IMG/VR virus record: IMGVR_UViG_3300005326_000102
Location: 1 to 31,410 of that record
Length of the DNA: 31,410 nt
Reading direction: 5' to 3' (one strand)
DNA from: a virus
Taxonomy: Duplodnaviria; Caudoviricetes
The notes under the pieces were generated by a model. The model saw only the letters and a list, made by a program, of their open reading frames with translations. It did not search any database and had not been told where the DNA came from. Below are positions 10,430-30,260 of this stretch, one piece after another. How positions within the stretch are numbered: position 1 is the first letter of the stretch; each line of letters opens with the position of its first letter. The position numbers were made by a program, and so were the translations under genes.

Positions 10430-10698
10430 ACGTGGCGAAGAATTTTTCTCAGACAAAAAACACCGGGGTGTTGTCGTGGTGCAAGGTTTGCGGGCGATAT
10501 TATTCCTGGGAATGCCCGACGAGGTTGGTCTACGTTGACGTAAAGACCGGGAAGAAGAAGGCCAGTTGGGAGCCAGAGCATTGCGGAAGCTCGGTATGTA
10601 AGGATTTCTGGAAGTATTACAAGGACTGCAGGGAGAAAGAAATGATGGATTTCGACATGGCGCGGGCAATGTTTTTGAAGCGGAAAGGGTTAATGTAA
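10420..10698 (+). CDS. small Cys-rich hypothetical protein
   Basis: CKVC...C...CGSSVC; ATG 10420 after GAGG. Confidence 0.65.
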   Translation: MRVDVAKNFSQTKNTGVLSWCKVCGRYYSWECPTRLVYVDVKTGKKKASWEPEHCGSSVCKDFWKYYKDCREKEMMDFDMARAMFLKRKGLM

Positions 10699-12264: not shown

Positions 12265-12632
12265 TGGCTAATCTAGTCGATATGGAGAAAATTTGGCAGA
12301 TTGAAAGTTCGATGAACCCGAAGGCGTTCAATAAAACGTCGAAAGCGCGGGGGCTGGGGCAGATTACGCCAATTGTCGTGCAGGAATGGAACGGATTTAA
12401 CCCGCGACGTAAGTTTGTTGACGACGACATGTTTAAAGAAGATATAAATCGGGAAGTTTCTACATGGTACATGACCCAGAGAATCCCGCAAATGCTGAAA
12501 TATTACCGGATCCCGGTAACGACCGAGAATGTATTGGCCGCTTATAACGCGGGGATTGGGAATGTCAAACAGGGAGTTATGCCAAAAGAAACGGTCAACT
12601 ATATCAATAAATACAAGGCGTTAATGCAATGA
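12264..12632 (+). CDS. lytic transglycosylase (SLT domain)
   Basis: IESS (catalytic Glu), ARGLGQI, LAAYNAG, ETVNY motifs. Confidence 0.9.
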   Translation: MANLVDMEKIWQIESSMNPKAFNKTSKARGLGQITPIVVQEWNGFNPRRKFVDDDMFKEDINREVSTWYMTQRIPQMLKYYRIPVTTENVLAAYNAGIGNVKQGVMPKETVNYINKYKALMQ

Positions 12633-13711: not shown

Positions 13712-14577
13712 GCTTTACCCTTTACGACAAGGACGGCGCGGAATATCAAGCTAGGACAACAACCGGGGTTGTTGAGCTAGGTGCCAGCGGTGTTTATTCG
13801 GTAAAGCTCGATGTCCCGGACATGTTCGACGGGATTTTGGTCTGGGATGACGGCAACGCCGAGGCGCTTTATGCCGGGGAAAGTTTCAACAATTTTCAGG
13901 TAAATCGGCTGTCTACGATCAGCGACCGAACGGAGTATATTTTGCAGTCAATCGCCATGCACCGCAGCGAAGTTGAGCCGATAATCGCCAAGATGGATAT
14001 AAAATCAGTTCTCGAACAGTTTGAAAAAGTGATGGAAGATATTAAGGCCGCAATAAAAACTTTTGAAATCGGGGCAAAGGCCGCGAATGATGACGTTAAG
14101 GCCGCCGTGAAGAACATTAAAATTCCCGAGCAGAAACAAGACATTGTTTTGCTCGACAAACACTTGCGGATGGTTGAAGCGCTTTATTCTGATTACAACA
14201 AAGTCATGGACGGCATGAGGAAAATAGAAAAAAGTCTGCAGGCAGTAAAAAGCGACACGGCCAAACAGGTCAGAAACGAGATCGCGCCGCTTGTGGATAA
14301 AGTCGCTGTGGCCAGCGAGTCGCTGTTAACTTCTGATGAGGTAAAAAAATCTCAAGCGGCTATTTCAAAAAAGTTTGACGAGCAGGCCGTCGCTCTCCGG
14401 GCAAGGATTTCCACGGACTTTGACCAAATTATTAAAAAGCTGGGAGCAGAAAGGTTCAGCGTTTTAAAAGACATGCTTGGTATTTTGGAACAAAGTGCAT
14501 ATCGTAACTCTCCCAGCGGGGCGGAAAACGTGGCGTTTACTAGAAAAATGAGCATGATGCTGGGGCGGCGAAAATGA
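13660..14577 (+). CDS. hypothetical protein: beta-rich N-domain plus long coiled coil
   Basis: First ~80 aa show a beta-strand pattern; the remainder is heptad-rich and helical. Confidence 0.7.
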   Translation: MQYTKVVNLGQSGLSTVGFTLYDKDGAEYQARTTTGVVELGASGVYSVKLDVPDMFDGILVWDDGNAEALYAGESFNNFQVNRLSTISDRTEYILQSIAMHRSEVEPIIAKMDIKSVLEQFEKVMEDIKAAIKTFEIGAKAANDDVKAAVKNIKIPEQKQDIVLLDKHLRMVEALYSDYNKVMDGMRKIEKSLQAVKSDTAKQVRNEIAPLVDKVAVASESLLTSDEVKKSQAAISKKFDEQAVALRARISTDFDQIIKKLGAERFSVLKDMLGILEQSAYRNSPSGAENVAFTRKMSMMLGRRK

Positions 14578-15269
14578 TCTGTCCAGTATGTCGAAACGAA
14601 ACAATTAACGGAATGAAAATAACCGGGTTTGAAACTTTGAATTGGGCGCGGTGTTCGTGTGGCGTGATTTTTCAGGAGATGATCGAGGAGAAAACGATTT
14701 CCAACGATTACCTTGAACAGTATAAACAAAAAAAGTTTTATGAATCCAGTGCACAATATCCCGTTGATGTTTATTTCCCGCTGATTGAAGAGATTACTTT
14801 TGGCCGCCGGTTGTTGGAAGTTGACAGCTTGGATTTAGAAGTCTGCAACGCCGCCGCCAAACGGGGATGGATTACTTTTGCCACGTCGGAGAAAGAGCTG
14901 ACCGGGACGAGTGTTTGGACGGACAAATTTTTAAATATCAAAGACGCGCCGGAAACCAAGTTTGACTGTATTTATGTTTATCACTGGATTGAAAAATTAA
15001 TAAACGGGGAGTCATTGAGAAAACTGCACGACTGGCTGAATCCCGGCGGGGTTTTGTTCTTAGCTACCCCGGACAGTCATTACGTTGACGAGATCGGTGT
15101 TGTTAATTTTGGACATTGGTTCAAAGAAAACAACATCATTTTTTCCCGTGCGGCCATGAAGAAAGAACTTGAAAAAGCAATGTTTGAGGTCGTTTTACTG
15201 CGAGGCAATCCTTCAAACAGATTTTTAAAGTGTAACGATATGCACATTATTGCCCGGAGGTTAATGTAA
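14574..15269 (+). CDS. methyltransferase-fold protein with degenerate SAM motif
   Basis: CPVC...CSC N-terminus, FDCI..YHWIEK, WLNPGGVLFLATP; motif I lacks glycines (LLEVDSLD). Confidence 0.75.
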   Translation: MICPVCRNETINGMKITGFETLNWARCSCGVIFQEMIEEKTISNDYLEQYKQKKFYESSAQYPVDVYFPLIEEITFGRRLLEVDSLDLEVCNAAAKRGWITFATSEKELTGTSVWTDKFLNIKDAPETKFDCIYVYHWIEKLINGESLRKLHDWLNPGGVLFLATPDSHYVDEIGVVNFGHWFKENNIIFSRAAMKKELEKAMFEVVLLRGNPSNRFLKCNDMHIIARRLM

Positions 15270-15931
15270 TGGCAGTTGAAAATTTAACGCTCTTGCAAAT
15301 TGTTCAAGAAGTGTTTACGGCGATCAGAGAGACCAAGCCAACAAGCCTTTCCTCTCAAACGACGCGGACACAGGAAGTCGTTCAGGCGGTTAAGGACGTT
15401 TACTTGGAAGTGTGTTCGATGAATAACGGCCACCTGAAATTTCTTGAATCTAGCGGGACGATAACGCTTGCCACAGATGATCGCGACTACGCAATGGCGG
15501 CAGATGTGAAAGACTTGTGTCTGGAAAGTTTTATCTTGGACAACCAGGACGACGTTGAATACCTTGATTACAATTCGTTTATGGCGAAGTACCCGGACAT
15601 CACCGACACCGGGAAGCCATACAATATTACCGTCTGGAACAATGAGTTCTTGATCGGATACGTCCCGTCCTCATCTTACGACGGAAAAACCATTCCCTAT
15701 AAATATTGGAAACAGCCGGACGACATTGTTAACGATGGCGATTATCCATTAATTCCTAAAGAACTTCGCCGACGGGTTCTTGTTTTCGGTGCGGCGGCTC
15801 AGCTTTTTCAGACCGACAGCGACCCGTCTTACAAGCTTTACTGGGATAGGTATATGGGCGCGATAGCGGATCTAAAACGCGGGTATTCTTCGGCAACACC
15901 GGGAAATGTCAGGGTAACGCATGTCTTCTAG
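15269..15931 (+). CDS. head-tail adaptor / tail tubular protein A-like
   Basis: TLLQIV N-terminus, TGKP, D.PLIP, LVFGA; typical size and position before the nozzle gene. Confidence 0.75.
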   Translation: MAVENLTLLQIVQEVFTAIRETKPTSLSSQTTRTQEVVQAVKDVYLEVCSMNNGHLKFLESSGTITLATDDRDYAMAADVKDLCLESFILDNQDDVEYLDYNSFMAKYPDITDTGKPYNITVWNNEFLIGYVPSSSYDGKTIPYKYWKQPDDIVNDGDYPLIPKELRRRVLVFGAAAQLFQTDSDPSYKLYWDRYMGAIADLKRGYSSATPGNVRVTHVF

Positions 15932-18104
15932 GGACACATTATTTTCAGAATTTCGGGGGATAAATCGCCAAGCGGACAAAAGCAATATGTCCCCGAAGTA
16001 TCTTTACGACGTTTATAACGGATATTTCTCGAAGTCCGGGACGATTAAGAAGCGGTTTGGTTATAACAAGAAATATAGTGTGCCGATAACGGCAAAAGAT
16101 ACTAACAAGGTACTATTAATAAATTTTGATGGTGCGGACGCCGCGACAACGCATATCGCAGAAACAGGACAGACGGTTACTTTTGTCGGTAACGCGCAAT
16201 TGGACACAGCACAAAAAAAATTCGGGGTCTCTTCTTTTTTGCTCGACGGTACGGGCGATTATGGAACTGTCCCGGATAATATTAACTGGAGTTTTGGTGC
16301 CGGGGATTTCATCATTGATATTCATGTGAGATTTGCTTCTTTGACAAACGAGCAACGATTAATAGGACAAGTGGCGGATTCAGATAATTATTGGTTTATA
16401 GGAAAACATACTGCCTCGAATGCAAATGCTTTAGAGTTTTATTTTAAGATTGGGGGCGTTGTCGTTGCCGATTACACCTCAGCTACTTGGGCAGGAGCAT
16501 CTACGACTAATTTTCACCATCTTCGCTTTGCCAGAATAGGAAGTTCAGTTTATATGTGGGCTGATGGAACGCCTCTTGCTCCTACGGAAACAGTCGCAAT
16601 CGGCACAAACAATCTCGGGAATGTTGCCGCGGATTTATGTATCGGGTCATTAGGGGGGAATCAAGCTGTTGACGGATGGATAGACAATGTTCTCATTCAG
16701 AAAGGTAATACCGCTACCGCCGGGGCCTTTACTCCTCCTACTCGGGCGCATAATCTTCATTATAATTCGACGAATACAGTTGATATTTTGGCTTATTACG
16801 AGGCAGTTTATGACGATGAATCGACAGACTATTTCTGTTGCTCTTCGACCACAATCTATCGGTGGAATGCCAGCGCTGCGGATTGGGATATCCTCAAGGA
16901 GCTAGCAAGCACAGCGACATATTTCTCCATAGCTCAGTATGGCGATGAGGTGTTATTTTCTGACGGGATTAATGCGCCGCAGACATTCACGAAGGGAGGA
17001 ACCGCGACGGCGGATTTTACAATGCCAGCTGGCGTGACTTCGTTTAAGCTCGTTCATGTCCATGAAAACCGGCTCTGGGGGATAACGACGACCTATGTGC
17101 CGTGGTATTCGGCGTTAGGTAATATCGACGACTGGACAACCTCTGGGGACGCTGGAGCGGGGTATCTTAACCTTTTGGCATACGTTTCAAAAGGTGATGA
17201 GATCGAGGCGGTTTCTACTTTTTCCAAAGCATACTTGGGTTTCTTTATGAAAGAACATGTGCTGATTTACAGTATCGGCGCGGTAGCCAGCGAGTTTCAG
17301 ATTTTGCAAACGATTATTAACACTGGGGCTAAGTCGGCGTTGTCTGTCATGTCGTTTGGTAATGACAATTATTATCTTGATGAGGACAGTCCTAAAAGTC
17401 TGGTCGCGTCAACAACAAGTCAAGAACTCGATATCAATGACTTTGTTGGCGGGGTGATGGGGAATTATTACCGCGACTTAATGTATGCCGCCAGCGGGGC
17501 GCGTATCTGCATGGCGAAATATACAAAAAAGTCATGGATTGTTATCCATATCCCAATAGGAACTGACGGGGGAGAAATTCATATTTGGGACTACGCCTAT
17601 AAAATCTGGTCGGGACGGTGGCGGGTTTATGACAAGGTAAATTCGATATTTCAAGACAGCGACGGTAATTTGTCTTTTGCTAGTGCGGGATATGTTTACA
17701 CGTTTGACGAAACCGTCCTTAACGACGACGGAGAAATTATAGAGTTCGTTGTGCAGACGCCTTTTTATCATGGCCGCGATCCGCTGGCTTATGAACGCGT
17801 CCCTTTTATGGAATTTCTTTCAGAGACAACGACGGCGGGAACAGAGCTTGAAGTTTCGGCGTTCTTTGATTACCAATCTGAATATTCGACTTATGAAGTC
17901 GTTCCTCTGGCGGCGAATGTATCTTTATGGGACGTGGCGCTATGGGATGTAAATTTATGGGACGCTTCCGGCCAAGCGGTCAGCCGGGTAAGAGTTACCG
18001 GGCGCGGGAAGATGCACCGTTTATCTTTCAGAAATAATCAGCTTGATAAAGACGTTGAATTGAAATATTGGAAAACTTTTCAAAAGAATCTTGGGTACAA
18101 CTAG
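15921..18104 (+). CDS. tail nozzle/hub protein (P22 gp10 / T7 gp12-like) with inserted LamG domain
   Basis: FRGIN, IKKRFGY, HENRLW, WYSALG..DW, LWDVALWDVNLWD motifs; LamG-like block at about 16090-16760. Confidence 0.8.
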   Translation: MSSRDTLFSEFRGINRQADKSNMSPKYLYDVYNGYFSKSGTIKKRFGYNKKYSVPITAKDTNKVLLINFDGADAATTHIAETGQTVTFVGNAQLDTAQKKFGVSSFLLDGTGDYGTVPDNINWSFGAGDFIIDIHVRFASLTNEQRLIGQVADSDNYWFIGKHTASNANALEFYFKIGGVVVADYTSATWAGASTTNFHHLRFARIGSSVYMWADGTPLAPTETVAIGTNNLGNVAADLCIGSLGGNQAVDGWIDNVLIQKGNTATAGAFTPPTRAHNLHYNSTNTVDILAYYEAVYDDESTDYFCCSSTTIYRWNASAADWDILKELASTATYFSIAQYGDEVLFSDGINAPQTFTKGGTATADFTMPAGVTSFKLVHVHENRLWGITTTYVPWYSALGNIDDWTTSGDAGAGYLNLLAYVSKGDEIEAVSTFSKAYLGFFMKEHVLIYSIGAVASEFQILQTIINTGAKSALSVMSFGNDNYYLDEDSPKSLVASTTSQELDINDFVGGVMGNYYRDLMYAASGARICMAKYTKKSWIVIHIPIGTDGGEIHIWDYAYKIWSGRWRVYDKVNSIFQDSDGNLSFASAGYVYTFDETVLNDDGEIIEFVVQTPFYHGRDPLAYERVPFMEFLSETTTAGTELEVSAFFDYQSEYSTYEVVPLAANVSLWDVALWDVNLWDASGQAVSRVRVTGRGKMHRLSFRNNQLDKDVELKYWKTFQKNLGYN

Positions 18105-18113
18105 GGGGCTGAT

Positions 18114-19016
18114 ATGTCAGTTGCAAAAACAAGACTTTATAACTTCGCCAATGATAGCGCGGCATCAACGCCGATTTCTTCGGCTAAAATTGACGCTGAG
18201 TTAGACGCAGTAATAGCTGCGCTCAATCAAAAGGTGCAGATAAAAAGCACCGCGCCGGGAACCCCTGTTGATGGTCAAACGTGGGTTGATTTATCGACCG
18301 ACCCGCCAACGTTGAAAATTTACGATCAAACGAATGCGGGATGGACGCCGTTAATTACAATCGCTTCTCCTGCTCAGGGCGGGACGATTTACCATAATGG
18401 CACACAATGGACACAGTTGGCAGCAGGAACCGCTGGCCAGACGTTAGTAACCGGCGGGGCAGCAGCAAACCCTGCTTGGGGAGGAATGACCACTCAAGGA
18501 GATGTTGAATTTCGCAGCGCCACGACTAGAGCGCGTTTAGCTGCCGGGACTTCTGGCATGTTTTTGAAAACTCTCGGTACTGGGGCAGACCCGGCTTGGG
18601 CATACATTACGAGAGATATCGGAGCGAGAGCCTACGCTTCCGGGCAGAGCATAGCCAACAATACAGCGACGGCGGTCGCCCTTGCGAACGAAACGTATGA
18701 CACGGATACCATTCACGATAATTCGACAAACAACAGCCGCCTCACGAGTAAAACCGCGGGGAAATATATCATTACCGGCTATGCCGCGTTTGACGTGAAT
18801 GGAACCGGAATTAGAGCGGCTGAGATCAGGCTAAATGGGACGACCAGATTAACTCAAGCAACCGGGACGACGGCAGGGAGTCCGACTGTTTCGCACAGTG
18901 TGGCGACCTTGTACTCGTTAGCAGTAAATGATTATGTCGAGTTGGTAGTTACTCAAACAAGTGGGGACGCCTTGAATCTCTCTGAGGGGAACTTGGCGAT
19001 GAGTCTTATCCCATGA
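18114..19016 (+). CDS. tail fibre/needle protein with C1q/TNF-like C-terminal head
   Basis: N-terminal KIDAELDAV anchor, two AAGTxGxxLxTxGxxAxPAW repeats, AGKYIITG...LAVNDYVEL head. Confidence 0.75.
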   Translation: MSVAKTRLYNFANDSAASTPISSAKIDAELDAVIAALNQKVQIKSTAPGTPVDGQTWVDLSTDPPTLKIYDQTNAGWTPLITIASPAQGGTIYHNGTQWTQLAAGTAGQTLVTGGAAANPAWGGMTTQGDVEFRSATTRARLAAGTSGMFLKTLGTGADPAWAYITRDIGARAYASGQSIANNTATAVALANETYDTDTIHDNSTNNSRLTSKTAGKYIITGYAAFDVNGTGIRAAEIRLNGTTRLTQATGTTAGSPTVSHSVATLYSLAVNDYVELVVTQTSGDALNLSEGNLAMSLIP

Positions 19017-19577: not shown

Positions 19578-20537
19578 ATGTCTAAAAAAGAGAAACCCGC
19601 ATTTCAAGGGCCAATGACACAAGATCAATCCTTAGAAAAATTCACCCCGCAAGGTTTTTATGCTCCGACGGGAAATGTGACGTGGGGAAATGACGGGTAT
19701 AAGGCGACGATTAGCGACCAGTACAATCCGCTAAACGTCTTGCCTCAATACGACGATATGCGGTTACGGCTTCTTGGCGATATCGGGTTGACAGGTCAGG
19801 CCCGCGCTGATCAGCTAGACCAATACGGGAACGCCTTTATGGACAAGTCGCTGGAATACTCCGCGCCGCGATTAAAGGCGATGACTTATGGCCGGGGCCA
19901 AGCCGGGTCAAGAATGGCGGCAGATTCTTATTCCGATCTGGTTAATAAAGCCTCAACAGACGCGATATTAAGCCGGGAACAGCTAAGAAACCTCGATGAG
20001 CAGCTGAAGCTCCAACAGTTGACGGCGGTCGAGGGGGGAATAGGGAACGCTTATAATCAATATGGGAACATGATTCAACAGCTTTTATCCGGCGGGCAAA
20101 TTTCCCAGCAGGCGGCGAAGCAAGCGATGGATCAGGCGCGGGCGTATGTATCTGATTACAACACGCTTGAGTCTGAGAGAGTGAAGCGGGCTAATTCTTC
20201 AAATAACGCGGGGACAATCGGGAGTCTGGCTGGAACGGCGTTGGCAATCGGCGCGGCTCCTTTTACTGGCGGGGGTAGTTTGGCTTTTATGCCGCAGGCG
20301 GCTGCGCTGGGCGGTAGCATCGGCGGGATGTTTGACCCGGCCACAATGTCAAACGGCGGGGGCCAAAATAATGTCATCCAAGCCACCCAACTGATGAAGT
20401 CTTTCCCGTCTTTTGCTCCTTGGCAACCCGGACAGGCTGTCCCCGGATATGGCGGATATGGGGCAAGTACTCCGTCGGGAGTTTATAACACAGGAAGATT
20501 TAGTATGCTGCCCAAAACAGCGTTAGGGAGGGGATAA
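19578..20537 (+). CDS. putative DNA ejection/internal virion protein 1
   Basis: Gln/Ala-rich helical body with a Gly-rich hydrophobic segment (GAAPFTGGGSL). Confidence 0.65.
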   Translation: MSKKEKPAFQGPMTQDQSLEKFTPQGFYAPTGNVTWGNDGYKATISDQYNPLNVLPQYDDMRLRLLGDIGLTGQARADQLDQYGNAFMDKSLEYSAPRLKAMTYGRGQAGSRMAADSYSDLVNKASTDAILSREQLRNLDEQLKLQQLTAVEGGIGNAYNQYGNMIQQLLSGGQISQQAAKQAMDQARAYVSDYNTLESERVKRANSSNNAGTIGSLAGTALAIGAAPFTGGGSLAFMPQAAALGGSIGGMFDPATMSNGGGQNNVIQATQLMKSFPSFAPWQPGQAVPGYGGYGASTPSGVYNTGRFSMLPKTALGRG

Positions 20538-20538
20538 A

Positions 20539-21708
20539 ATGTCGGACATTCTTCCTCAATCACACTTTGATTATTTAAAAGAGCAGCGCGGGGTTGCGCG
20601 GGAAAACCAGTTGATTAACCAAGACCAGATCAACAACATCATCGTCGCGCAGGAGGTCAATAAGGCTTTTAACGCCTATGCTCAAAACAAGGATGGCACG
20701 AAATTTGTCCAGCAAATGCGGACGCTCGGCCATCTGTTCGGAAACGAGAAATTGCAGGGGTTCGAGATGCCGGATTATATGGGCGAGATGGGCCAGCCGG
20801 TTTATACGATGGACGATGCCGGGGCCTTAACCAAGAATGGCGTTGTTCCTAAAAACGCTATTATCAGGAATAAATCTAAGGAATCAGACGCTGCCCGATT
20901 AACCAGCGCAGTTCAGTCTGGTATGCAACCTGATCAATTGCGGGTTAACTTCCCCCAGTATGCCGACAAGATAGACCAGCTTGAGATGGCCGGGATTTTT
21001 CAACAAAAGGGGGTTACTGGCGCACAGGGGGCGCAAATACCGCCTTTTTCCATGCCACAGGGCCAAGGGTTATCTCAACCGGGAATGAGTGTTGAGCCGG
21101 GAATGACGCCGGTTAATGGCGGGATTGTTCCGACTGGCTGGGATGCGTTAGGGCGTCCGAAGGGATATGAACGCGAAAAACCAGATTTAGCGAAAATGAA
21201 ATTCGAGGCCGATCAAGCCGCAACAAAATTGACCGACGAGAAAAGAATTGAAAACGAACAAGAGTTTTCCGCAGACCTTCTTTCCACGATTGGAGAAATT
21301 AAGAAAGGGATAAAATATTTCGGCGCGGCCGGGTCTGTTCCTCCTCTTCCGGGGGAATATTCAAAAGTAAACTGGCGGGCTAATTTTGACAAACTGATAT
21401 CACAGCAAGTTTTAGAAACCCTCTCCGATCTTAAAAAACAGAGCAAAACCGGAGCGACAGGTTTTGGACAGCTAAGCAATAAAGAGCTAGGCATATTAAT
21501 GAACGCCGCAACAGTGCTAAAAAGGAACATGTCGGAAGAAGACGCCATGAGATATTTAAATGACATGGAAGCGGTGACAAGGAAAATCTCGGGTGGTGGT
21601 CGTCCTAGTTCTTCGACTGGCGGAAATTTCGAGGAAGGTAAAGTTTATCGTGATGCTCAAGGGAATCGGGCTGTTTTTCAGGGGGGGCGGTGGGTTGAGG
21701 CTCAGTAG
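20539..21708 (+). CDS. putative DNA ejection/internal virion protein 2
   Basis: GFGQLSNKE motif and C-terminal GKVYRDAQGNRAVFQGGRW module; position in the tail-ejection cluster. Confidence 0.65.
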   Translation: MSDILPQSHFDYLKEQRGVARENQLINQDQINNIIVAQEVNKAFNAYAQNKDGTKFVQQMRTLGHLFGNEKLQGFEMPDYMGEMGQPVYTMDDAGALTKNGVVPKNAIIRNKSKESDAARLTSAVQSGMQPDQLRVNFPQYADKIDQLEMAGIFQQKGVTGAQGAQIPPFSMPQGQGLSQPGMSVEPGMTPVNGGIVPTGWDALGRPKGYEREKPDLAKMKFEADQAATKLTDEKRIENEQEFSADLLSTIGEIKKGIKYFGAAGSVPPLPGEYSKVNWRANFDKLISQQVLETLSDLKKQSKTGATGFGQLSNKELGILMNAATVLKRNMSEEDAMRYLNDMEAVTRKISGGGRPSSSTGGNFEEGKVYRDAQGNRAVFQGGRWVEAQ

Positions 21709-21925
21709 GTTCTTCTGAAGACCTAATCATTTGAAAAAAGATTTTTAAAGCCTCGGGATGATTTTTAGGGTTTCTTAGATAAACAAGAAAAAGGAAGACA
21801 CCTAAAGTAATACCAATGAGTATTAACCCATATTCAATAATTGTTGCCATTGGTTCGACAGCCATAATGAAAAAGTCTAGCATAAAGTTTTTGAAAAAGC
21901 AAACTATCGGAAGCCTTAAATCCAA
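21605..21925 (-). CDS. putative opposite-strand membrane protein (moron-like)
   Basis: Strong TM segment YGLILIGITLGVFLFLVYL; occupies the AT-rich gap 21709-21972 but overlaps the upstream gene by about 100 bp; start uncertain. Confidence 0.45.
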   Translation of the reverse strand: MDLRLPIVCFFKNFMLDFFIMAVEPMATIIEYGLILIGITLGVFLFLVYLRNPKNHPEALKIFFQMIRSSEEPTEPQPTAPPEKQPDSLEHHDKLYLPRNFRQSKN

Positions 21926-21972
21926 GATTTATCCGTATCTGTTTGACAGGGTAGAAATTCAGAAAGGGATTT

Positions 21973-23613
21973 ATGCCATTTGACCCGAATACCGCAGTTC
22001 TGGAAGAAGCAAATCCGGAGAGATCTAAATTTGACCCCTCTACGGCGGTAAGAGAAGACCGCCCGAGCAGAGCGGATATGCTTGACCAACAAAGAGAAGC
22101 TCAAGTACAGCAAGCTAACGCTGAATATGGCGCAGCTCATCCTTACGCCACAGCTTCCAATAAAATTGCCCGCGATTTTTCCCGCGATTTGGCCACTATT
22201 CCCGCAAATTTTGTGAATCAACTCGCTATGAATTATCCCAGAAGTGCGGCAAGAACGGCGTTAAAAGATAATCCCGACTTAAAAGATAATCCCGTTGTTT
22301 CTTTTATGGCTAACCCTGAATCCGACAATCCCTTCGCTCAGGTGCTTTCAAAGACAGCTGGCGCAGCTGGCGCGGTTTATGGACTAGGCCCCAAACTGGC
22401 GCTTGGTGCGGCCAACGTCGGAGCGCGAATGGCTCCGAAAGTTATTCTTCCCGCCGCAAAAATGGCCACCGGGAAACTAGGACAAAAGTTAGCTACAGGA
22501 GCAGTAACCGGCTTTGCTGGTGGCGCAACTTACGCCCCGGACACGATAGCCAGAGAAGAATACGCCAAACAAGCCGCGTTAAGCACGGCGTTGGGTGTAA
22601 TGCTCCCCGGAGTTGGTCGGGTGATCAGTTCTCAAGCGCAAAAATATACCAGCAGCCCCGCGCAAAAACTTAAAGCAGCGATAAATCAAAACGCGGCTGT
22701 TTATCGGAAAATTCTGCGTCCTAACCAAGGCGAAGTTAATAAGGTCGAAATTAAGTCGGGGAAAAAGATTGACGATTATTACCGTCTTGCCGCTGAGGAA
22801 GGATTGATTATTAAGCAGACGAAAGATAAAAAACTCGACGTGTCTGATGCGTTGGTTAAGCTGCAAGACAGAAAGTTAGAATTGAATAACCAACTTAATT
22901 CAGCTTTGCGATCTGACAGGAAGAAACAGTTTAGTTTAGCAAAGTTGGGATATGAAGCTGCGGGAGAGTTAAGGAAGAAGTATAAAAATGACACTGAATA
23001 CAAAAAAGCCGTAGAAGATGTTTATCAGTATATTGGTGACGCGATAGAAGAACGAGGAAACAACCTTACTGGATCACAGTTGAATGACTTTAAACAAGGG
23101 ATGTGGTCTGTTTCTTACGACCCGCTCAGTCCCAACAAAAACAAGGTGGCGAGACAACTTGGTTTCCTCGCAAAAAAAGAAATTGAGCAGGCTTATTCAG
23201 ACAAGGCAATCAAGGAAACAAACCGACGGCTTGGAGACTTCCTGACCCTTGAAACATTACTTAATAACGCGCAAGGCCGCGTTGTGCAGGGCGGGAAGCT
23301 AGGAGGATATGCAGCAAGGGGAACCGGGGCGGTTGTGGGAGGATTGGCGGGTCAAGCAATCCCCATTCCCGGAGTAGGCCCGGTTGCGGGTTCTATTGCA
23401 GGTCAGGACATTGGGGGGAGAATTGCAGCTATTATCAACGACCCGGAACGGATAACGAAGGGATTGGCCAAGAGGGTGCAGAGAACAAACACTAAACCGG
23501 CTCTCGGAAGCAAGCAGATTAAGGGCGCGATGAAAAAAGGGATAAGTTTTATAGAGAGAACAGCGGATGAAGGCGAACAGATTATTAGAGGCAAGAGAGG
23601 TATTCTTTTTTAA
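21973..23613 (+). CDS. putative DNA ejection/internal virion protein 3
   Basis: MPFDP..AV repeats at the N-terminus, Ala/Gly-rich hydrophobic stretches, helical basic body. Confidence 0.65.
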   Translation: MPFDPNTAVLEEANPERSKFDPSTAVREDRPSRADMLDQQREAQVQQANAEYGAAHPYATASNKIARDFSRDLATIPANFVNQLAMNYPRSAARTALKDNPDLKDNPVVSFMANPESDNPFAQVLSKTAGAAGAVYGLGPKLALGAANVGARMAPKVILPAAKMATGKLGQKLATGAVTGFAGGATYAPDTIAREEYAKQAALSTALGVMLPGVGRVISSQAQKYTSSPAQKLKAAINQNAAVYRKILRPNQGEVNKVEIKSGKKIDDYYRLAAEEGLIIKQTKDKKLDVSDALVKLQDRKLELNNQLNSALRSDRKKQFSLAKLGYEAAGELRKKYKNDTEYKKAVEDVYQYIGDAIEERGNNLTGSQLNDFKQGMWSVSYDPLSPNKNKVARQLGFLAKKEIEQAYSDKAIKETNRRLGDFLTLETLLNNAQGRVVQGGKLGGYAARGTGAVVGGLAGQAIPIPGVGPVAGSIAGQDIGGRIAAIINDPERITKGLAKRVQRTNTKPALGSKQIKGAMKKGISFIERTADEGEQIIRGKRGILF

Positions 23614-23864
23614 TATGAACACTGTTGTTGGCAATATGAATAAGAATAACCTTTTGATGTACAAGAGTTCATACATTTAAAATCTGTCTGTTTAATTCTT
23701 GGCTGCGGAGAAGTTGGAATTTGGCCTGGCCCGTCATAGGAACACCTTTGTTGACAATATCCATACATATATCCCGATTTCAGGCAATCATTCATGCACA
23801 TAAAATCGGTTGAAGCAAAAGAGGGAGAAGTGAATAAAAGAATTGAAAGTATTGCCAGTATCAT
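23610..23864 (-). CDS. secreted Cys-rich tandem-domain peptide (moron)
   Basis: Signal peptide ending SFA; two TDFxCMNxCxxxGYxYxYCQQxCSY repeats; AAGGA RBS; own promoter. Confidence 0.85.
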   Translation of the reverse strand: MILAILSILLFTSPSFASTDFMCMNDCLKSGYMYGYCQQRCSYDGPGQIPTSPQPRIKQTDFKCMNSCTSKGYSYSYCQQQCSY

Positions 23865-24020: not shown

Positions 24021-25760
24021 ATGAATAAAATCAAGAAAATTTCGTTATCTTTACTCGTCGCCATTCTCGGGATCACGGCTTTTGCCTACGCCCAGCCCGC
24101 TTCCCAGCCATTTATCGCCTTTCTCCGCCAACTGCGGGACGTAAACACGACCGATGCCATTACGGGGAGTGTCTTGAAATATAACGCGACCACCGGAAAA
24201 TGGGCGGTTGGAGTTGACGAAGGCGGGGCGGAGGCTACCGGAGACGTTACCGGGGTAGGCGATTGCGCGGGCGGGGCCTGTCTTGACGGGACTAGCGATG
24301 GGGGGACGTGGATAAAATTTTATGACGCACAGGGAGTCGGGCAGTTGATTACGGGTAATTTAACAGAAGCGCGGGTTTGGACACTTCCGGATTTAACCGG
24401 GACGCTTTTAACCGTCGAATCAGCGGCTTTGACATATCAACCATTGGACGCCGACCTAACAACCTACGCCGGAATCACGCCTTCGGCTAATATACAAACA
24501 TTGTTAGGTTCGGCTGATTATTCAGCGGCGCGGACGAATTTGGGGCTGGCCATCGGGACGAACGTGCAGGCGTACAGCGCTGATACCACGACGCAGGGGA
24601 ATAAAGTCACGCTGACGCAGCCTGCGAACGGCTCAACGCTGACGATTGTGGACGGCAAGACACTAACGGCGACCAATACCGTTAACCTCAACACAATGAT
24701 CGACGCGAAGTGGTGCAAGTATTCCACGACCGGGACGGCGCTGGATTGTAACGTTGACCCTGTTACAGACACCAACACAACGTACAGCGCAACGGCTACC
24801 GGCGGCCTGACGTTTACGGGTACGGCAATTGGACTTACCCCTTGCACCGGCAACGAAAACTATATCCCGAAATGGAACGCCGCGACCGGGTGGACGTGTC
24901 AAGCAGATGCCTCTGGCGCGGGGGGCGGGTATACGACGTTAGGCCAGTTTGTTGACCAGGCAGCATGGAAGGTTTTTTATTCAGATGGTTCCGGGGACGT
25001 GCAGGAATTGGCATTAGGTGCGGCCAACACTTATTTCACCTCAGCGGGGGCAACGTCGGCACCGACGTTCGGGGCTATCCCGGCGGCGGGGATAGCGGCC
25101 ATGAGTTCGTCCGACTTAGCTGGGATATTGACCGACGAGGACGGCAGCGGGGATTGCGGGAGCGGGAAGGTCTGTTACGGCGATCACACACACACGACCT
25201 ACACAGCCGGGGGAAGCACCACGGAGTTGCAGCGCAACAATGGCGGAGTTCTTGGTGGAATAACGGGGTTTACGTCTAACGGAACGAATTTGACAGGGAC
25301 GGGTACGTTAAGCATGGGAACGGGGGTTTTGATTATCCCCAACACAGCCGCGGTTACGACCGCCGTAGCCGGGAGTATTGGCGTAGACCTCACCGATGAC
25401 CAGCTTAAATATTACGGCGCAGCAGAGCGGGTGGTGCCATATAAAGCACAAAAATGTTTTGCGTTAAATCTGCCTGTTGCCACAGATGATAATGTCCCGG
25501 TGTTTTTTCCAACGGACGCAATCACCGTTACAAATATGTACTGCATGACGCAGGGGGGAACGAGTGCAGAAATTATTTTATCTGACGGAACTAACGCGCT
25601 TGACACTATGACGTGTGACGCAGATGGGCAAGCAGATGATGGGAATATCGCAAACAACACTTTCACCGCGCTTGAACGGGTAGAGTTCGACACCGGCACG
25701 GTAACTGGTGCAGTCGATTGGGTGACGGTCTGTTTCACTTATACAACAACGGGGGAATAA
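24021..25760 (+). CDS. tail-fibre-like protein with Sec signal peptide and paired cysteines
   Basis: MNKIKKISLSLLVAILGITAFAYA|Q signal; LRQLRDV...GSVLKYNATTGKW, AARTNLGLAIGTNVQAY fibre motifs; Thr/Gly-rich; 12 Cys. Confidence 0.8.
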   Translation: MNKIKKISLSLLVAILGITAFAYAQPASQPFIAFLRQLRDVNTTDAITGSVLKYNATTGKWAVGVDEGGAEATGDVTGVGDCAGGACLDGTSDGGTWIKFYDAQGVGQLITGNLTEARVWTLPDLTGTLLTVESAALTYQPLDADLTTYAGITPSANIQTLLGSADYSAARTNLGLAIGTNVQAYSADTTTQGNKVTLTQPANGSTLTIVDGKTLTATNTVNLNTMIDAKWCKYSTTGTALDCNVDPVTDTNTTYSATATGGLTFTGTAIGLTPCTGNENYIPKWNAATGWTCQADASGAGGGYTTLGQFVDQAAWKVFYSDGSGDVQELALGAANTYFTSAGATSAPTFGAIPAAGIAAMSSSDLAGILTDEDGSGDCGSGKVCYGDHTHTTYTAGGSTTELQRNNGGVLGGITGFTSNGTNLTGTGTLSMGTGVLIIPNTAAVTTAVAGSIGVDLTDDQLKYYGAAERVVPYKAQKCFALNLPVATDDNVPVFFPTDAITVTNMYCMTQGGTSAEIILSDGTNALDTMTCDADGQADDGNIANNTFTALERVEFDTGTVTGAVDWVTVCFTYTTTGE

Positions 25761-26213
25761 ATGAAAAAACTCTTACTTGCATTATGCAGCGTCTTGCTGT
25801 TTAGCTCGACGGGGTGGGGGGCGGAGTTTTTAGTTATTGCAAAACGTCACTGGTCATATAAAGCCAGCATGAGCGTTGAGGAGCAAGCGGAGTATGACAA
25901 ACAGTATCAGGTCGGCGACATTGTGCAAGTTTTCCCCGACGGTAAATTAAGCGATAATGCGACTGCCGGGGGGAAATTTTATGTTGTGCGCGTTAGCGGA
26001 CTGGCCTATGACACGGCATTGAAATATCACGAGCAATGGATTGAAAGAAACGGAGAGGAAACAATTTTCATCAAGCGACGTAAATTCCGAATCCGGGCCA
26101 CTGAGTTACCAGCATCAGTTAAAAACCAGCTGCAAACAACCGGCGTCTATAACACGACATGGACAGCGGTTAAATCTTATATCAGAAATAATGTGACGGG
26201 GCTAGACGAATGA
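25761..26213 (+). CDS. exported hypothetical protein (possible fibre partner)
   Basis: MKKLLLALCSVLLFSSTGWG|A signal-like N-terminus; lies between two fibre-like genes. Confidence 0.75.
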   Translation: MKKLLLALCSVLLFSSTGWGAEFLVIAKRHWSYKASMSVEEQAEYDKQYQVGDIVQVFPDGKLSDNATAGGKFYVVRVSGLAYDTALKYHEQWIERNGEETIFIKRRKFRIRATELPASVKNQLQTTGVYNTTWTAVKSYIRNNVTGLDE

Positions 26214-27247
26214 GAAAAATATTATTATCAGCTTTGTTGGTGTGCTCTCTTTGCTCGCCGGTAATGGCGGCGACGATAACCAGATACGTTAATCCGGGGT
26301 CATCCGGAGGTGACGGAACTACTAGCGCCACTAGCGGGGCTAACGCGGCCTATGCGTCGTGTAATGCTTGGGAAGCAGCGGAGCAAACTAACCTAGATAC
26401 TGCAAACAATATCATGCTGGTTTATGCGGCTGGGACGACAGCGGACACAACCGCCTGCGCTATTAGCGGGTGGACAACGTCCGCTACCGATTACATAGAT
26501 TTCCGGGGCGATAATACGTCGGGGAAGCTCGACGCGGGTAAGTATCGACTTACGGGCATAGCTTCGGATGCTATGAACATTGGCTCAACAAATGTGCGCG
26601 TTTCAAACGTGGCGATCGAAACACCGTGGAATGGGTACGAATGTTTTGACTTAACCGGATGGAATGGGAACTATCAAATCCACGATAACGTCTGCAAATC
26701 TGGCGGCGGTCAGGGGATTAATGTTGGGTACGGGGTAAGCGCCAAAATTTGGAATAACGTCATATACGAATGTAACGGCACGGGAATCAGGAACGCGGCG
26801 ACGCACGCTAATGAAAACGTCGTGGCTGCATACAGCAACACGCTCATCGGGAATGGCGTCGGGATGGCTGATTCTCATGGTCACGTAACCGCAAAAAACA
26901 ATATCGCGTATAACAACACCACTGATTACTCCGGCACTTTTGCTGCCGCGTCAACGCACAATTTGTCAAAAGATACCACGGCCCCAGCGTTAAATACCTA
27001 CTACGTCAGCAAAACGCTCACTTTCGTTAACGCCGCAGGGGATGACTATCACCTCGCTTCTGGCGACACCGACGCCATTGATATGGGGACAGCCACTTCA
27101 GGAGAATCGGCCCCGCTAAACTTTACCACCGACATCGACGGCACTACCCGCAGCGGCACCTGGGACATCGGGGCGGATGAGTATGTGAGCGCGGAGCCGA
27201 CGCCGACGCCAACGCCGGGACGCCAGAGGATACTGCTAATTCAATGA
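26210..27247 (+). CDS. exported right-handed beta-helix (pectin-lyase-like) protein, possible tailspike/adhesin
   Basis: Signal MRKILLSALLVCSLCSPVMA|A; IWNNVIY, YSNTL, KNNIAYNN repeats; DYHL...DIDG..R...WDIGADE; PTPTPTP linker. Confidence 0.8.
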   Translation: MRKILLSALLVCSLCSPVMAATITRYVNPGSSGGDGTTSATSGANAAYASCNAWEAAEQTNLDTANNIMLVYAAGTTADTTACAISGWTTSATDYIDFRGDNTSGKLDAGKYRLTGIASDAMNIGSTNVRVSNVAIETPWNGYECFDLTGWNGNYQIHDNVCKSGGGQGINVGYGVSAKIWNNVIYECNGTGIRNAATHANENVVAAYSNTLIGNGVGMADSHGHVTAKNNIAYNNTTDYSGTFAAASTHNLSKDTTAPALNTYYVSKTLTFVNAAGDDYHLASGDTDAIDMGTATSGESAPLNFTTDIDGTTRSGTWDIGADEYVSAEPTPTPTPGRQRILLIQ

Positions 27248-28020: not shown

Positions 28021-28165
28021 ATTTTTGTTCACCGTAGTAACAGCTGTTGTTTTTGGTTGGATGTCTATTACAGGAAAACTTCCTGCGGATAAAGTATCAG
28101 AGGTTATCCTTTTAGTGATATATGCGTATTTTAATCGAGCAAGGTCAACGGAGGTTACGAAATGA
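27986..28165 (+). CDS. putative holin (2 TM, 59 aa)
   Basis: MHEFGKKLMSGRFLFTVVTAVVFGWMSITGKLPADKVSEVILLVIYAYFNRARSTEVTK; AGGAG RBS; basic ends flank two hydrophobic segments. Confidence 0.6.
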   Translation: MHEFGKKLMSGRFLFTVVTAVVFGWMSITGKLPADKVSEVILLVIYAYFNRARSTEVTK

Positions 28166-28590
28166 AAAAGTTTTTAATGTTAGCTGTAATGCTTTTTTTA
28201 TGCGCTGGGTATGCAAACGCTCAAGAAGAAAAAAAGTTTAGCGGGTTGTTAGACAAGGTTAGCTGGAAGCAGGGAGTTGCTTGGTCGCTGCAAGAAAGCA
28301 CGATGAATGCGTTAAGCACCGTCGAGATTATTAAATTCGAGAAATACGTTAAGGGCCTTACCTTCGAGGTGGGAACAGCTGGTGACGGTGATGATTCCGA
28401 CTGGAAGCTCGTGGTCGTTATGTCCTATCCGCTGTTAAACCTCAAGGAAAAAGGCGTAACAATCCCTATTCTTGATTTGGTTGACGCCAACGTTGGCGCT
28501 TGGTTCGGTGCTGGACATTTAAATAAAGACATGATGAATAGTCGTTCGGATTACGGAGTTAGCCTTTCGCTTCTTAACTTTAAATGGTAA
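28162..28590 (+). CDS. exported protein, possibly outer-membrane beta-stranded
   Basis: Signal ending ANA|Q; alternating amphipathic strands; ends YGVSLSLLNFKW with a terminal aromatic residue. Confidence 0.75.
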   Translation: MKKFLMLAVMLFLCAGYANAQEEKKFSGLLDKVSWKQGVAWSLQESTMNALSTVEIIKFEKYVKGLTFEVGTAGDGDDSDWKLVVVMSYPLLNLKEKGVTIPILDLVDANVGAWFGAGHLNKDMMNSRSDYGVSLSLLNFKW

Positions 28591-28599
28591 GGGGTCAAT

Positions 28600-28731
28600 A
28601 TGAATATCTTGGCTAAAATTCTGGCAACGCTGACCTATCCTTTATTCTTGGGGTTGCGTCAGCCTGACCCCGACGGGAAGGACAAGGGAATTTGGGCCGA
28701 CCTGAAAGGCATTTGGACCAACAAGGAGTAG
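28600..28731 (+). CDS. small hypothetical protein (43 aa)
   Basis: MNILAKILATLTYPLFLGLRQPDPDG...; AGGGG RBS. Confidence 0.5.
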   Translation: MNILAKILATLTYPLFLGLRQPDPDGKDKGIWADLKGIWTNKE

Positions 28732-28733
28732 CC

Positions 28734-28859
28734 ATGGGCGATATTCTTAGCGAACTTGGGAAGGCGATAGATGGAGGGAATATATTGGCGGTGCTCGTCG
28801 GTGCATTAATCATGCTTCCAATGATATGGGCCGTCTGGAAAAATAAATCAGGGGGTTAA
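28734..28859 (+). CDS. small single-TM protein (41 aa)
   Basis: MGDILSELGKAIDGGNILAVLVGALIMLPMIWAVWKNKSGG; AAGGAG RBS. Confidence 0.55.
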   Translation: MGDILSELGKAIDGGNILAVLVGALIMLPMIWAVWKNKSGG

Positions 28860-28860
28860 C

Positions 28861-29061
28861 ATGGGCTGGACTTCAATCTTTGACCTACTCAACAAGTTCG
28901 TCCCCGGACGCGAAGAAAGAATCCGAAACGACATCGACAGAATCAAAGCGGAACGAGAAAGAATAATCAAACATGAACCGTCCACACTTAAAAATATTGA
29001 GCGGCTTGCTATTCTTGAGTCTGAGTTGCACACAAAAGAGCGCGCCTTACAAAATCGTTGA
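28861..29061 (+). CDS. coiled-coil protein, i-spanin-like
   Basis: Amphipathic N-terminus plus coiled coil; overlapped out of frame by a lipoprotein ORF. Confidence 0.5.
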   Translation: MGWTSIFDLLNKFVPGREERIRNDIDRIKAERERIIKHEPSTLKNIERLAILESELHTKERALQNR

Positions 29062-29161
29062 ACCTCCTAACTTAGAGTGGGGCAAGCAGGGCGATCAGCC
29101 GACGTTGCAGAATAACTATCCGTGGGTGTGTATGAGTCAAGACCGGTACTTTTCAAAATAG
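28973..29161 (+). CDS. small lipoprotein, o-spanin (Rz1)-like
   Basis: MNRPHLKILSGLLFLSLSC lipobox-like signal; Pro-containing mature part with a second Cys; overlapped gene arrangement. Confidence 0.6.
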   Translation: MNRPHLKILSGLLFLSLSCTQKSAPYKIVEPPNLEWGKQGDQPTLQNNYPWVCMSQDRYFSK

Positions 29162-29233: not shown

Positions 29234-29704
29234 ATGAATGAACGCCGCCAAGTCAGGGATTGGGCTATTAAGATTGGGGTATGCTTCCTGTTCGCGTTCT
29301 GCTACTCAGCAGGGGGGAGCGAAGATTTTGGCGGCTTAAAAATTCTTCGCCGGTTCCTTGGGCCGCTAATTCTGAGTGCGGGCATGGGGTATTTCTCAAG
29401 GGACTGGCGAAGCCTTCCTATGATATTGCTGATGCCGTTCTCGCTGTCGCTAGGGTATGGCGGCGATCTGGAGTGGCTTAAAATCCTCAAACGGGGCGTC
29501 TACGGCCTCGCCAACGGCGTTTCCTCGGGGTGCTACGACCTACTCAACAAACGCTGGCTACTGGCTGGCTTCCAAACTCTGCTTTTAATCGCTGCTTATA
29601 TCTCCTTTGGGGTGTATAACCCCTTCGACAACGCCCGCATCGAGGAGGGGACGCTGGGTTTTCTGGTGGCGTTTATTCCGATGATGAGCGCAAGGCGGCG
29701 TTAA
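29234..29704 (+). CDS. multi-pass membrane protein
   Basis: 156 aa with several hydrophobic segments; last gene of the late operon. Confidence 0.75.
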   Translation: MNERRQVRDWAIKIGVCFLFAFCYSAGGSEDFGGLKILRRFLGPLILSAGMGYFSRDWRSLPMILLMPFSLSLGYGGDLEWLKILKRGVYGLANGVSSGCYDLLNKRWLLAGFQTLLLIAAYISFGVYNPFDNARIEEGTLGFLVAFIPMMSARRR

Positions 29705-30072
29705 ATCTGATCTTCGGGGTCTCTTCTGTAGGGAGAAAATTGCTCGTATTCAACAAGCCCTTGGAATTTTTTGTAATTATTTTGTGGCGAGTTGGAGGGA
29801 GGCTTCTTGGCCCCGGTGGGGCGGATCTCAAATGGTTGCCACCATCCGTCCTTTAAATTCCCGACAAGGGCGGCGGTAGCGATTAGAACGTCTTTGGTGG
29901 CTGGCTTTTTGTTGGATTTTAGTTGGCTAAGGTAAGATTTGGAAATACCCATAGCGTCTGCGAGGTCTTTATCTTCTTTGAAATTTTTAATTAGGCATAG
30001 ATTTTCTATAAATCCTGGCTTAAAATAAAAGTCATATTCAAGCTCGGAATCAAACTTGTCGTTTAAAGACAT
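29701..30072 (-). CDS. XRE-family HTH repressor-like regulator
   Basis: DKDLADAMGISKSYLSQLKSNK HTH; likely start at ATG 30072 after GGAG, with the track's 30210 start less likely; divergent from a strong promoter. Confidence 0.85.
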   Translation of the reverse strand: MSLNDKFDSELEYDFYFKPGFIENLCLIKNFKEDKDLADAMGISKSYLSQLKSNKKPATKDVLIATAALVGNLKDGWWQPFEIRPTGAKKPPSNSPQNNYKKFQGLVEYEQFSPYRRDPEDQI

Positions 30073-30260
30073 CCTGACTACTCCACGATTATTTTTTAAC
30101 GGAAGGTAGCTTTTGTTAATTATCCCCCAAATCTTGCCCATGAACAAAGCATGGCATAATATGGAAGTAAAATCAAGGGAATAAAAGTTAACTGGAATAA
30201 TTTTCAACAAAAAAGCAAAATTTTACTATTACCCGACGGAAAAATATTTTAATAAACCGC

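What the first reader, a model, noticed from the sequence alone, without database searches (positions are those of the whole stretch)
24021..27247. Tail-fibre and tailspike-like genes that all carry Sec signal peptides: possible extracytoplasmic virion maturation or phage-encoded surface adhesin system
Seen: three consecutive genes at the receptor-binding-protein position each start with a basic-hydrophobic-small-residue signal peptide (…AFAYA|Q, …TGWG|A, …PVMA|A). The 579-aa protein has recognisable fibre motifs and 12 Cys, eight in close pairs (CAGGAC, WC…DC, PC…TC, DCGSGKVC) and four in the tip domain, whereas the unsignalled fibre at 18114 has no Cys. Established: tailed-phage fibres normally fold and attach in the cytoplasm without signal peptides, and disulfides form in the periplasm. 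Inference: these fibres are exported, oxidatively folded and attached to particles in the periplasm or at lysis, or they are displayed on the lysogen surface or released as decoys. This is the strongest candidate for an undescribed system in the window.
Basis: partly seen in the sequence, partly recalled or inferred. Interest (0 to 1): 0.9.

Follow-up and report, generated by a model that had tools for sequence, protein, structure and literature searches.

The report
Phage appendage cassette carrying export signals
An uncultured short-tailed phage puts bacterial secretion-type signal sequences on three linked genes (a fibre, a small partner and a beta-helix spike) whose relatives in other phages begin without any signal, so these parts are predicted to fold outside the cytoplasm and would likely clip onto finished particles at lysis, a route I found in no paper on tailed phages.

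Summary
The three signal peptides and the 12 cysteines are real. The cassette is not at the canonical fibre position: a signal-less fibre (18114) holds that, and the cassette follows the ejection genes. The 150-aa protein and the beta-helix form a conserved adjacent or fused pair in the virion-gene regions of many uncultured phages, mostly signal-less and starting at the predicted cleavage site. Signal status travels with the locus: 14 of 14 signal-bearing beta-helix loci have a signal-bearing fibre, against 1 of 20 signal-less loci; it changed at least 5 times on the tree. The fibre ends in a jelly-roll like phage cement proteins and fibre tips; 108 of 119 signal-bearing tips have even cysteine counts. 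Export is very likely (heuristic, no SignalP). Attachment to particles is not shown: no cultured phage has the genes, the complex predictor was unavailable, and the same beta-helix occurs in giant cellular surface-type proteins and in one phage-free cellular cassette. Best reading: periplasm-staged accessory appendage docked at lysis (0.5). This scan noted the same phenomenon before on other DNA (138 notes, at least 132 genomes, unchecked); seven literature searches found no description.

The parts
24021..25760 (+). 579-aa mosaic fibre: predicted Sec signal (1-24), N-terminal fibre motif (31-68), tail-fibre repeat (140-190), four local Cys pairs, C-terminal jelly-roll domain (about 475-576) with four Cys
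24021..24092 (+). predicted signal peptide of the fibre
   Evidence: 93 of 120 modular relatives signal-bearing by the same rule
25386..25757 (+). fibre C-terminal jelly-roll (8-strand beta-sandwich, pLDDT 84.7); family of 4,930 clusters; fold like phage capsid accessory proteins and fibre tips
25761..26213 (+). 150-aa partner protein (130 aa mature, no Cys), conserved upstream neighbour or N-terminal fusion partner of the beta-helix; confident model with no Foldseek match
26210..27247 (+). 345-aa right-handed beta-helix protein with predicted signal (1-20), choice-of-anchor-Q-like end, Pro/Thr linker and short C-terminal basic-hydrophobic peptide
18114..19016 (+). context: signal-less, Cys-free 300-aa fibre at the canonical position after the nozzle (internal control)
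23610..23864 (-). context: reverse-strand 84-aa Cys-rich protein with hydrophobic N-terminus and its own sigma-70-like promoter match (23996-23968), separating the cassette from the ejection genes
28162..28590 (+). context: signal-bearing 142-aa protein ending in alternating hydrophobic residues and Trp (outer-membrane barrel-like, pattern recalled); hints at a two-membrane host and is a candidate surface anchor under the rival reading
   Evidence: no family match

Best explanation
The three coupled late genes encode a fibre, a small partner and a beta-helix spike that are predicted to be exported by Sec, likely fold in the periplasm, and would dock as an accessory adhesion appendage on finished particles when lysis opens the inner membrane. 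Shown: genes, signals by rule, locus-wide concordance, signal-less twins in virion-gene regions. Predicted: signal peptidase I cleavage, jelly-roll tip, beta-helix. Inferred: the fibre is a trimer whose tip and stem modules are stapled by disulfides; the 150-aa protein binds the beta-helix N-terminal end (they are fused in other phages); the beta-helix binds glycans and hangs on by its short C-terminal peptide; with no membrane anchor the parts wait as a soluble periplasmic pool; the particle is first built in the cytoplasm with its own signal-less fibre (18114). The appendage is more likely a head or neck accessory than the tail-tip receptor-binding protein, since the module's gene position follows head and neck genes in phages of different tail types.
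For: Signal-less twins start at the predicted mature N-terminus: 7 of 18 relatives of the 150-aa protein, 58 of 113 classed beta-helix relatives; checked in DNA for L003, where no signal fits upstream, and many start 0-2 bases after the upstream stop. A signal-less phage protein can leave the cell only at lysis, and these sit among capsid, adaptor, neck and tail genes, so a virion role is the simplest for them; the signal-bearing form is the same mature module. Concordance: 14 of 14 versus 1 of 20 loci (Fisher p = 1.1e-8, uncorrected for kinship); partner concordant in 29 of 29 signal-less and 6 of 6 signal-bearing clusters where it was found. Signal state changes 9 times on a 55-row tree, at least 5 forced by well-supported branches. 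Fibre repeat 140-190 matches the segments of P0001, P0028, P0057, P0089 that hit PHROG 'tail fiber protein' 24210. Tip: nearest Atlas clusters are viral; best solved folds are a Pam1 capsid chain (Z 9.4, rmsd 4.5, 116 aligned), the 7-7-1 tail fibre C-terminal domain (Z 9.3, rmsd 3.1, 114) and the KHP40 cement trimer (Z 8.1). Even Cys count in 108 of 119 signal-bearing tips; 0-2 Cys in seven tips of proteins I judged by eye to be whole and signal-less. No lipobox, LPxTG, PEP motif or transmembrane segment after the signal in any of the three. Several C-terminal peptide types occur in both signal-bearing and signal-less beta-helices (by eye).
Against: No direct evidence of particle attachment: no match among 50,697 deposited phage records and no recognised virion anchor at the fibre's mature N-terminus. 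Only 4 phylogenetically independent pairs support the concordance (all in the same direction or tied, p = 0.125). The beta-helix also lies in cellular genomes: 24 of 51 examined genome loci carry it in proteins of 1,000-4,900 aa, many signal-bearing, and L129 holds a signal-bearing fibre, tip and beta-helix cassette with only cellular genes recognised around it in 20.8 kb. Jelly-roll hits are tied within 1 Z with carbohydrate-binding modules (Z 8.2), so the fold is generic. One C-terminal peptide type is almost confined to signal-less forms (1 of 42 versus 16 of 47, pattern chosen after seeing the data), which could mean different partners. Beta-helix Cys content does not follow signal status. 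This phage already has a cytoplasmic fibre and a nozzle insertion that could do host recognition.
Confidence: 0.5

Rival explanations
1. The exported module would stay with the cell: displayed on the infected or lysogenic host surface as an adhesin (as Bdellovibrio MAT fibres are), using a host export route or the barrel-like gene at 28162 as anchor.
For: Same beta-helix in giant, often signal-bearing proteins of Patescibacteria, Desulfarculales, Elusimicrobia, Nitrospira and DPANN archaea; 150-aa domain detected in two large cellular proteins (L125, L135); phage-free cassette L129; MAT fibres combine signal peptide, fibre and disulfide-bearing beta-sandwich tips (PMC10769870 passages); a repressor-like gene at 29701-30210 hints at a temperate life.
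Against: No anchor motif in the three proteins; no plus-strand promoter consensus above background before the cassette (weak); in L004 the cassette follows the last ejection-type gene directly; the cassette is embedded among capsid and neck genes in L024, L034, L085, L044; most phage copies of the pair are signal-less and could not reach a surface.
Confidence: 0.22
2. The exported proteins would act free of particles at lysis: occupying or degrading receptors and surface glycans of the dying host so that progeny are not inactivated on debris, or blocking competing phages.
For: Soluble, anchor-less proteins; position just before lysis-type genes in the window, L004, L016; beta-helix profile weakly matches a fucoidan lyase (E 0.0016).
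Against: A decoy needs only the binding domain, yet a 579-aa fibre with stem modules and the partner protein are kept and switch signal status together; position next to lysis genes is not general.
Confidence: 0.15
3. The N-termini are uncleaved membrane tethers or the true starts lie downstream, and the proteins assemble on particles at the cytoplasmic face like ordinary fibres.
For: SignalP not run; P0140 is called from Met19; virion disulfides are known in Milano and 7-7-1.
Against: Next Met is residue 226 in the fibre and 37 in the 150-aa protein; diverse signal sequences all end at the residue where signal-less twins begin; 119 of 150 tip-family proteins carry signals; basic N-region favours export orientation (established knowledge).
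Confidence: 0.08

Closest known systems
Bdellovibrio bacteriovorus MAT (mosaic adhesive trimer) fibres (PMC10769870; four passages read)
   Same: Signal peptide, mosaic fibre body, C-terminal beta-sandwich or TNF-like tip with disulfides.
   Different: Cellular and carry a conserved ~130-aa beta-rich domain after the signal, many with an S74 chaperone; here the genes lie in a phage late region, no S74 or other Pfam domain was found, and signal-less twins exist in other phages.
Agrobacterium phage 7-7-1 long tail fibre gp015 (PDB 9RKV; PMC12796354 passages)
   Same: Trimeric fibre ending in a jelly-roll domain that my tip model matches (Z 9.3); cysteine-rich, disulfide-linked virion.
   Different: Anchored to the baseplate by its N-terminal 120 residues; no export signal mentioned in the passages read; 8% identity over the tip.
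Capsid cement/decoration proteins of KHP40 (7DOU) and the 140-aa capsid chain of cyanophage Pam1 (7EEL_H; its role as cement is recalled)
   Same: Same jelly-roll fold (Z 8.1 and 9.4); such proteins add to finished capsids (recalled), which is the property a late-docking appendage needs.
   Different: Stand-alone cytoplasmic proteins; here the domain ends a 555-aa exported fibre; no profile similarity to the gene after this phage's capsid gene.
Podovirus tailspikes such as P22 gp9
   Same: Right-handed beta-helix, likely glycan-binding.
   Different: P22 tailspike has no signal peptide (bioRxiv 10.64898/2026.09.13.751334, figure legend passage); here no head-binding domain is recognised, the helix is short, ends in a choice-of-anchor-Q-like motif and pairs with a separate 130-aa protein.
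Eib trimeric autotransporter adhesins (PMC12511318 passages; that they are prophage-borne is recalled, the word was not in that paper)
   Same: Sec-exported trimeric fibrous adhesins.
   Different: Need a C-terminal beta-barrel anchor, which the fibre here lacks.
Filamentous phage pIII/pVIII (recalled; PMC4823517 seen only as a search listing)
   Same: Signal-bearing phage structural proteins with periplasmic folding.
   Different: Membrane-anchored and assembled during extrusion of a ssDNA phage without lysis; here a tailed dsDNA phage with soluble parts.

Membership tests
Sec/SPI exported protein | basic N-region, hydrophobic core, small residues at -3/-1 | tested here: met
   own rule; false-positive control; SignalP not run
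Sec/SPI exported protein | cleavage and translocation in vivo | not testable with these tools
   needs N-terminal mass spectrometry or fusions
Phage tail fibre | fibre repeats shared with annotated tail fibres | tested here: met
   repeat 140-190 matches segments of four relatives that hit phrog_24210; the window protein itself hit only phrog_34856, unknown function
Phage tail fibre | N-terminal particle-binding domain | tested here: inconclusive
   mature N-terminal motif found at the N-terminus of 5 signal-bearing and 2 signal-less proteins and internally in 2; no named anchor family
Phage tail fibre | present on the virion tail | not testable with these tools
   no cultured relative
P22-type tailspike | right-handed parallel beta-helix | tested here: inconclusive
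   Pfam Beta_helix E 0.0012, below cut-off; profile hits to solved beta-helix proteins E 0.0016-0.0017; not folded
P22-type tailspike | cytoplasmic, no signal peptide | tested here: not met
P22-type tailspike | homotrimer with head-binding domain | not tested
   complex predictor unavailable
Trimeric autotransporter adhesin | C-terminal beta-barrel membrane anchor | tested here: not met
   C-terminus is a soluble jelly-roll; no Pfam or NCBIfam match
Bdellovibrio MAT fibres | conserved ~130-aa beta-rich domain after the signal | not tested
   no MAT sequences fetched; no solved-structure sequence match to the fibre
Bdellovibrio MAT fibres | signal peptide plus mosaic fibre with globular tip | tested here: met
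Capsid cement jelly-roll proteins | jelly-roll fold | tested here: met
   Z 9.4 and 8.1, tied with fibre tips and carbohydrate-binding modules
Capsid cement jelly-roll proteins | binds the capsid shell | not testable with these tools
   no complex job ran
choice-of-anchor Q domain (NF041518) | score above curated cut-off 25 | tested here: not met
   no hit for the window protein; 2 of 7 relatives hit at 19.1 and 18.8 bits

The most novel reading that the evidence does not exclude
A large, uncultured part of the tailed-phage world builds its particles in two compartments: core in the cytoplasm, adhesion appendages in the periplasm, joined only at lysis; and one fibre + partner + beta-helix module moves between three uses (cytoplasmic virion part, exported virion part, cellular surface adhesin) by repeatedly gaining or losing signal peptides across a whole cassette.
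Probability: 0.45. Interest if true: 0.92.

Novelty: categorically new. Interest (0 to 1): 0.74.

Why it matters
Tailed-phage particles are held to be completed in the cytoplasm before lysis. Exported appendages joined at lysis would add a step to the assembly pathway, give phages access to host disulfide formation, and explain why a domain family of 4,930 clusters is mostly signal-bearing among its best hits yet absent from deposited phages. The paired signal-less and signal-bearing versions of one module give a natural experiment that earlier single-protein cases lack. Even if the surface or decoy reading holds, it is a widespread, undescribed phage-encoded secreted fibre system and links virion appendages to surface proteins of CPR, DPANN and other poorly cultured lineages.

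Tried and rejected
Complex prediction (tip trimer + partner + beta-helix): tool not available, nothing folded. Fold of the 150-aa protein: no Foldseek match in BFVD or PDB, no usable Atlas hit; the wider structural search did not finish, so a new fold is not claimed. Foldseek on the tip model never ran. No sequence match in solved structures for the fibre or beta-helix alone; the TrwG hit to the tip profile (E 0.004) was rejected because the model is a jelly-roll. Tip profile versus the genes at 9013, 18114 and L010's post-capsid gene: no similarity. Capsid-protein relatives in viral contigs: none, so no close sister phage and no host assignment. Sequencing runs: one DNA holder, possibly the source; no RNA holder listed. 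Promoter and terminator counts at background; intergenic fold z -1.4. Cysteine enrichment in exported beta-helices: rejected. 'All signal-less records are truncated gene calls': rejected by DNA context, though P0140 shows that some can be. Careful tree did not finish; quick tree used, with long branches. Look-ups of earlier findings by sequence and by place returned nothing. PMC13419713: only the abstract was held, no hits. PMC5723332: signal peptides counted, no proteins named in the passages.
Full report
Setting. The window is the late region of an uncultured short-tailed phage: terminase (3805), SU10-type portal (5091), capsid (8070), SU10-type adaptor (15269), a 727-aa nozzle-position protein (15921), a 300-aa fibre (18114), an acetyltransferase and three ejection-type genes (19578-23613). 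After a reverse-strand gene come the three genes of the finding, then small membrane and holin-like genes. The genome held is the window alone and no host could be assigned.

Observation. All three proteins begin with a basic, then hydrophobic, then small-residue stretch; core virion proteins do not. SignalP was not available, so I wrote a rule; it scored 33 of 13,914 internal slices and 0 of 39 relatives of the 18114 head domain as signals, and none of 19 of those loci with a fibre-like neighbour had a signal-bearing one. The cysteine pattern is as reported. The mature 150-aa protein has no cysteine and the mature beta-helix five. The database calls the beta-helix from Met19, but Met1 overlaps the upstream stop and Met19 is not kept in signal-bearing relatives.

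The fibre. It is a mosaic: of the best 120 of 327 hits most cover 9-25% of it, and 93 of 120 carry signals (98 allowing other starts). The most shared piece, residues 140-190, matches segments of four relatives that hit a PHROG tail-fibre family. The C-terminal domain defines a family of 4,930 clusters at 50% identity. Of the best 150, 119 carry signals, and 108 of those 119 have an even number of cysteines in the last 118 residues (kinship not corrected). The other 31 are largely fragments or missed signals; six that I judged whole and signal-less have 0-2 cysteines, as does L166's. The domain folds as an eight-strand jelly-roll (pLDDT 84.7); its nearest Atlas clusters are viral; the best solved matches are a Pam1 capsid chain, the 7-7-1 tail fibre tip, XepA, two carbohydrate-binding modules and the KHP40 cement trimer, Z 9.4 to 8.1 and so tied. 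In 7-7-1 that domain is the distal end of an N-terminally anchored fibre, so a distal hub is the likelier role; docking on the capsid through it is not excluded.

The pair. The 150-aa protein has 18 relatives: 7 signal-bearing, 7 starting with Met at the predicted mature N-terminus, 4 truncated. Of 119 beta-helix relatives, 6 were dropped for lacking the end motif; 42 carry signals, 58 start at the mature N-terminus and 13 are unclear. In L003 stop codons or the previous gene leave no room for a signal, and many signal-less genes start 0-2 bases after the upstream stop. The two proteins are adjacent or fused. Of 86 sources (window plus L001-L085), 74 gave a beta-helix gene at E < 1e-30 in my gene calls, collapsing to 58 clusters at 70% identity. 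The partner was found in 29 of 43 signal-less clusters, always signal-less, and in 6 of 15 signal-bearing clusters, always behind a signal (4 fused). Among the 34 clusters with a fibre-like neighbour, 14 of 14 signal-bearing and 1 of 20 signal-less ones have a signal-bearing fibre; other genes carry signals at similar rates (20 of 189, 38 of 484). On a quick 55-row tree (3 partial rows left out) the signal state changes 9 times, at least 5 forced; only 4 independent pairs exist, none going the other way, p = 0.125. PHROG annotation of 147 flanking genes puts the module between terminase and portal (L024), between capsid and adaptor (L085, L025), after the tail terminator (L034), before neck genes (L044, L057) or after ejection genes (L004, L016): a mobile accessory of head, neck or late genes rather than a fixed tail-tip gene. 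After a flexible linker the beta-helices end in short peptides of a few types; several types occur with and without signals, one is nearly confined to signal-less forms. I read these as docking peptides; that is inference.

Against. No deposited phage has these genes, so no virion proteome can be consulted. The beta-helix is common in cells: of 69 genome loci, 51 gave a gene in my calls and 24 of these are proteins of 1,000-4,900 aa, often with repeats of the domain and a signal. L129, from an Acidobacteria genome, has signal-bearing fibre, tip and beta-helix genes among cellular genes only. Beta-helix cysteines do not follow signal status (p = 0.50), and disulfide-rich virions are known. This phage has its own cytoplasmic fibre.

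Mechanism. Most likely the three coupled genes are made late, exported, cleaved and folded in the periplasm as soluble parts (no anchor motif), and join the particle when lysis mixes the compartments. The main argument is the twin logic: the same mature module, when signal-less, sits in virion-gene regions and can only act on or with the particle, and whole cassettes switch state together. I give 0.9 to export, 0.5 to docking on particles, 0.22 to surface display, 0.15 to free decoy or enzyme, 0.08 to no export.

Prior knowledge. Seven full-text searches returned no paper whose title, abstract start or passages read describe exported fibres of tailed phages; the library lacks most subscription papers and I read no supplements. 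One preprint legend states the usual view that a tailspike has no signal because it needs no export. The closest described system is the cellular MAT family. This scan's own notes record the same phenomenon 138 times in at least 132 genomes; they are unchecked AI notes, not support, and none matched this sequence. What this window adds is the partner plus beta-helix module with its signal-less twins and cellular cousins.

Verdict. Real, widespread, not found in print; export very likely, destination open. Interest 0.74.

Noticed in passing
window 23610-23864 (-): 84-aa protein with hydrophobic N-terminus and two 4-Cys repeats, weak defensin-like matches below cut-off, own sigma-70-like promoter match and a 14-pair hairpin upstream; a likely secreted moron.
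   Followed up: partly
window 28162-28590: Signal-bearing 142-aa protein with an outer-membrane-barrel-like C-terminus among lysis-type genes; a similar-looking gene lies in L091/L093, whose cassette is signal-less.
   Followed up: no
window 28692-29161: Small membrane, coiled and lipoprotein-like ORFs (28973 overlaps 28861 in another frame; lipobox non-canonical), arrangement reminiscent of spanins.
   Followed up: no
window 9452-15269: Glycosyltransferase, methyltransferase and transglycosylase genes between capsid and adaptor genes; glycosyltransferase-like genes also flank the module in many related loci. Possible virion glycosylation.
   Followed up: no
window 15921-18104: Nozzle-position protein carries an inserted domain (about residues 30-290) matching baseplate-wedge and virion structural PHROGs; a candidate receptor-binding module.
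   Followed up: no
L010 7419-7856; L019 2342-2695; L004 1807-2553: Signal-bearing small genes directly after the capsid-region gene, and in L004 a signal-bearing gene directly after the nozzle-like gene: export may extend to decoration proteins and the canonical fibre slot.
   Followed up: no
L099, L104, L113, L131, L132, L159: Cellular proteins of 2,900-4,900 aa with three or more copies of the beta-helix domain in Desulfarculales, Gammaproteobacteria, Moraniibacteriota and Raymondbacteria genomes.
   Followed up: partly
L129 7881-14321: Cellular cassette of signal-bearing fibre, tip-domain protein, beta-helix and a 972-aa protein next to glycosyltransferase, ABC transporter and O-antigen-ligase-like genes.
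   Followed up: partly
P0147, P0197 C-termini: Two signal-bearing beta-helices flank their terminal hydrophobic peptide with a cysteine pair, while signal-less relatives carry a similar peptide without it.
   Followed up: no
P0272, P0015, P0306, P0309: Signal-bearing tip-family fibres share a mature N-terminal motif that I recall as a phage fibre anchor; no PHROG match to that part confirmed it.
   Followed up: partly
L001 8492-11614; L002 6347-14239: Fibre relatives of over 1,041 and 2,630 aa with hydrophobic N-termini in other viral contigs.
   Followed up: no
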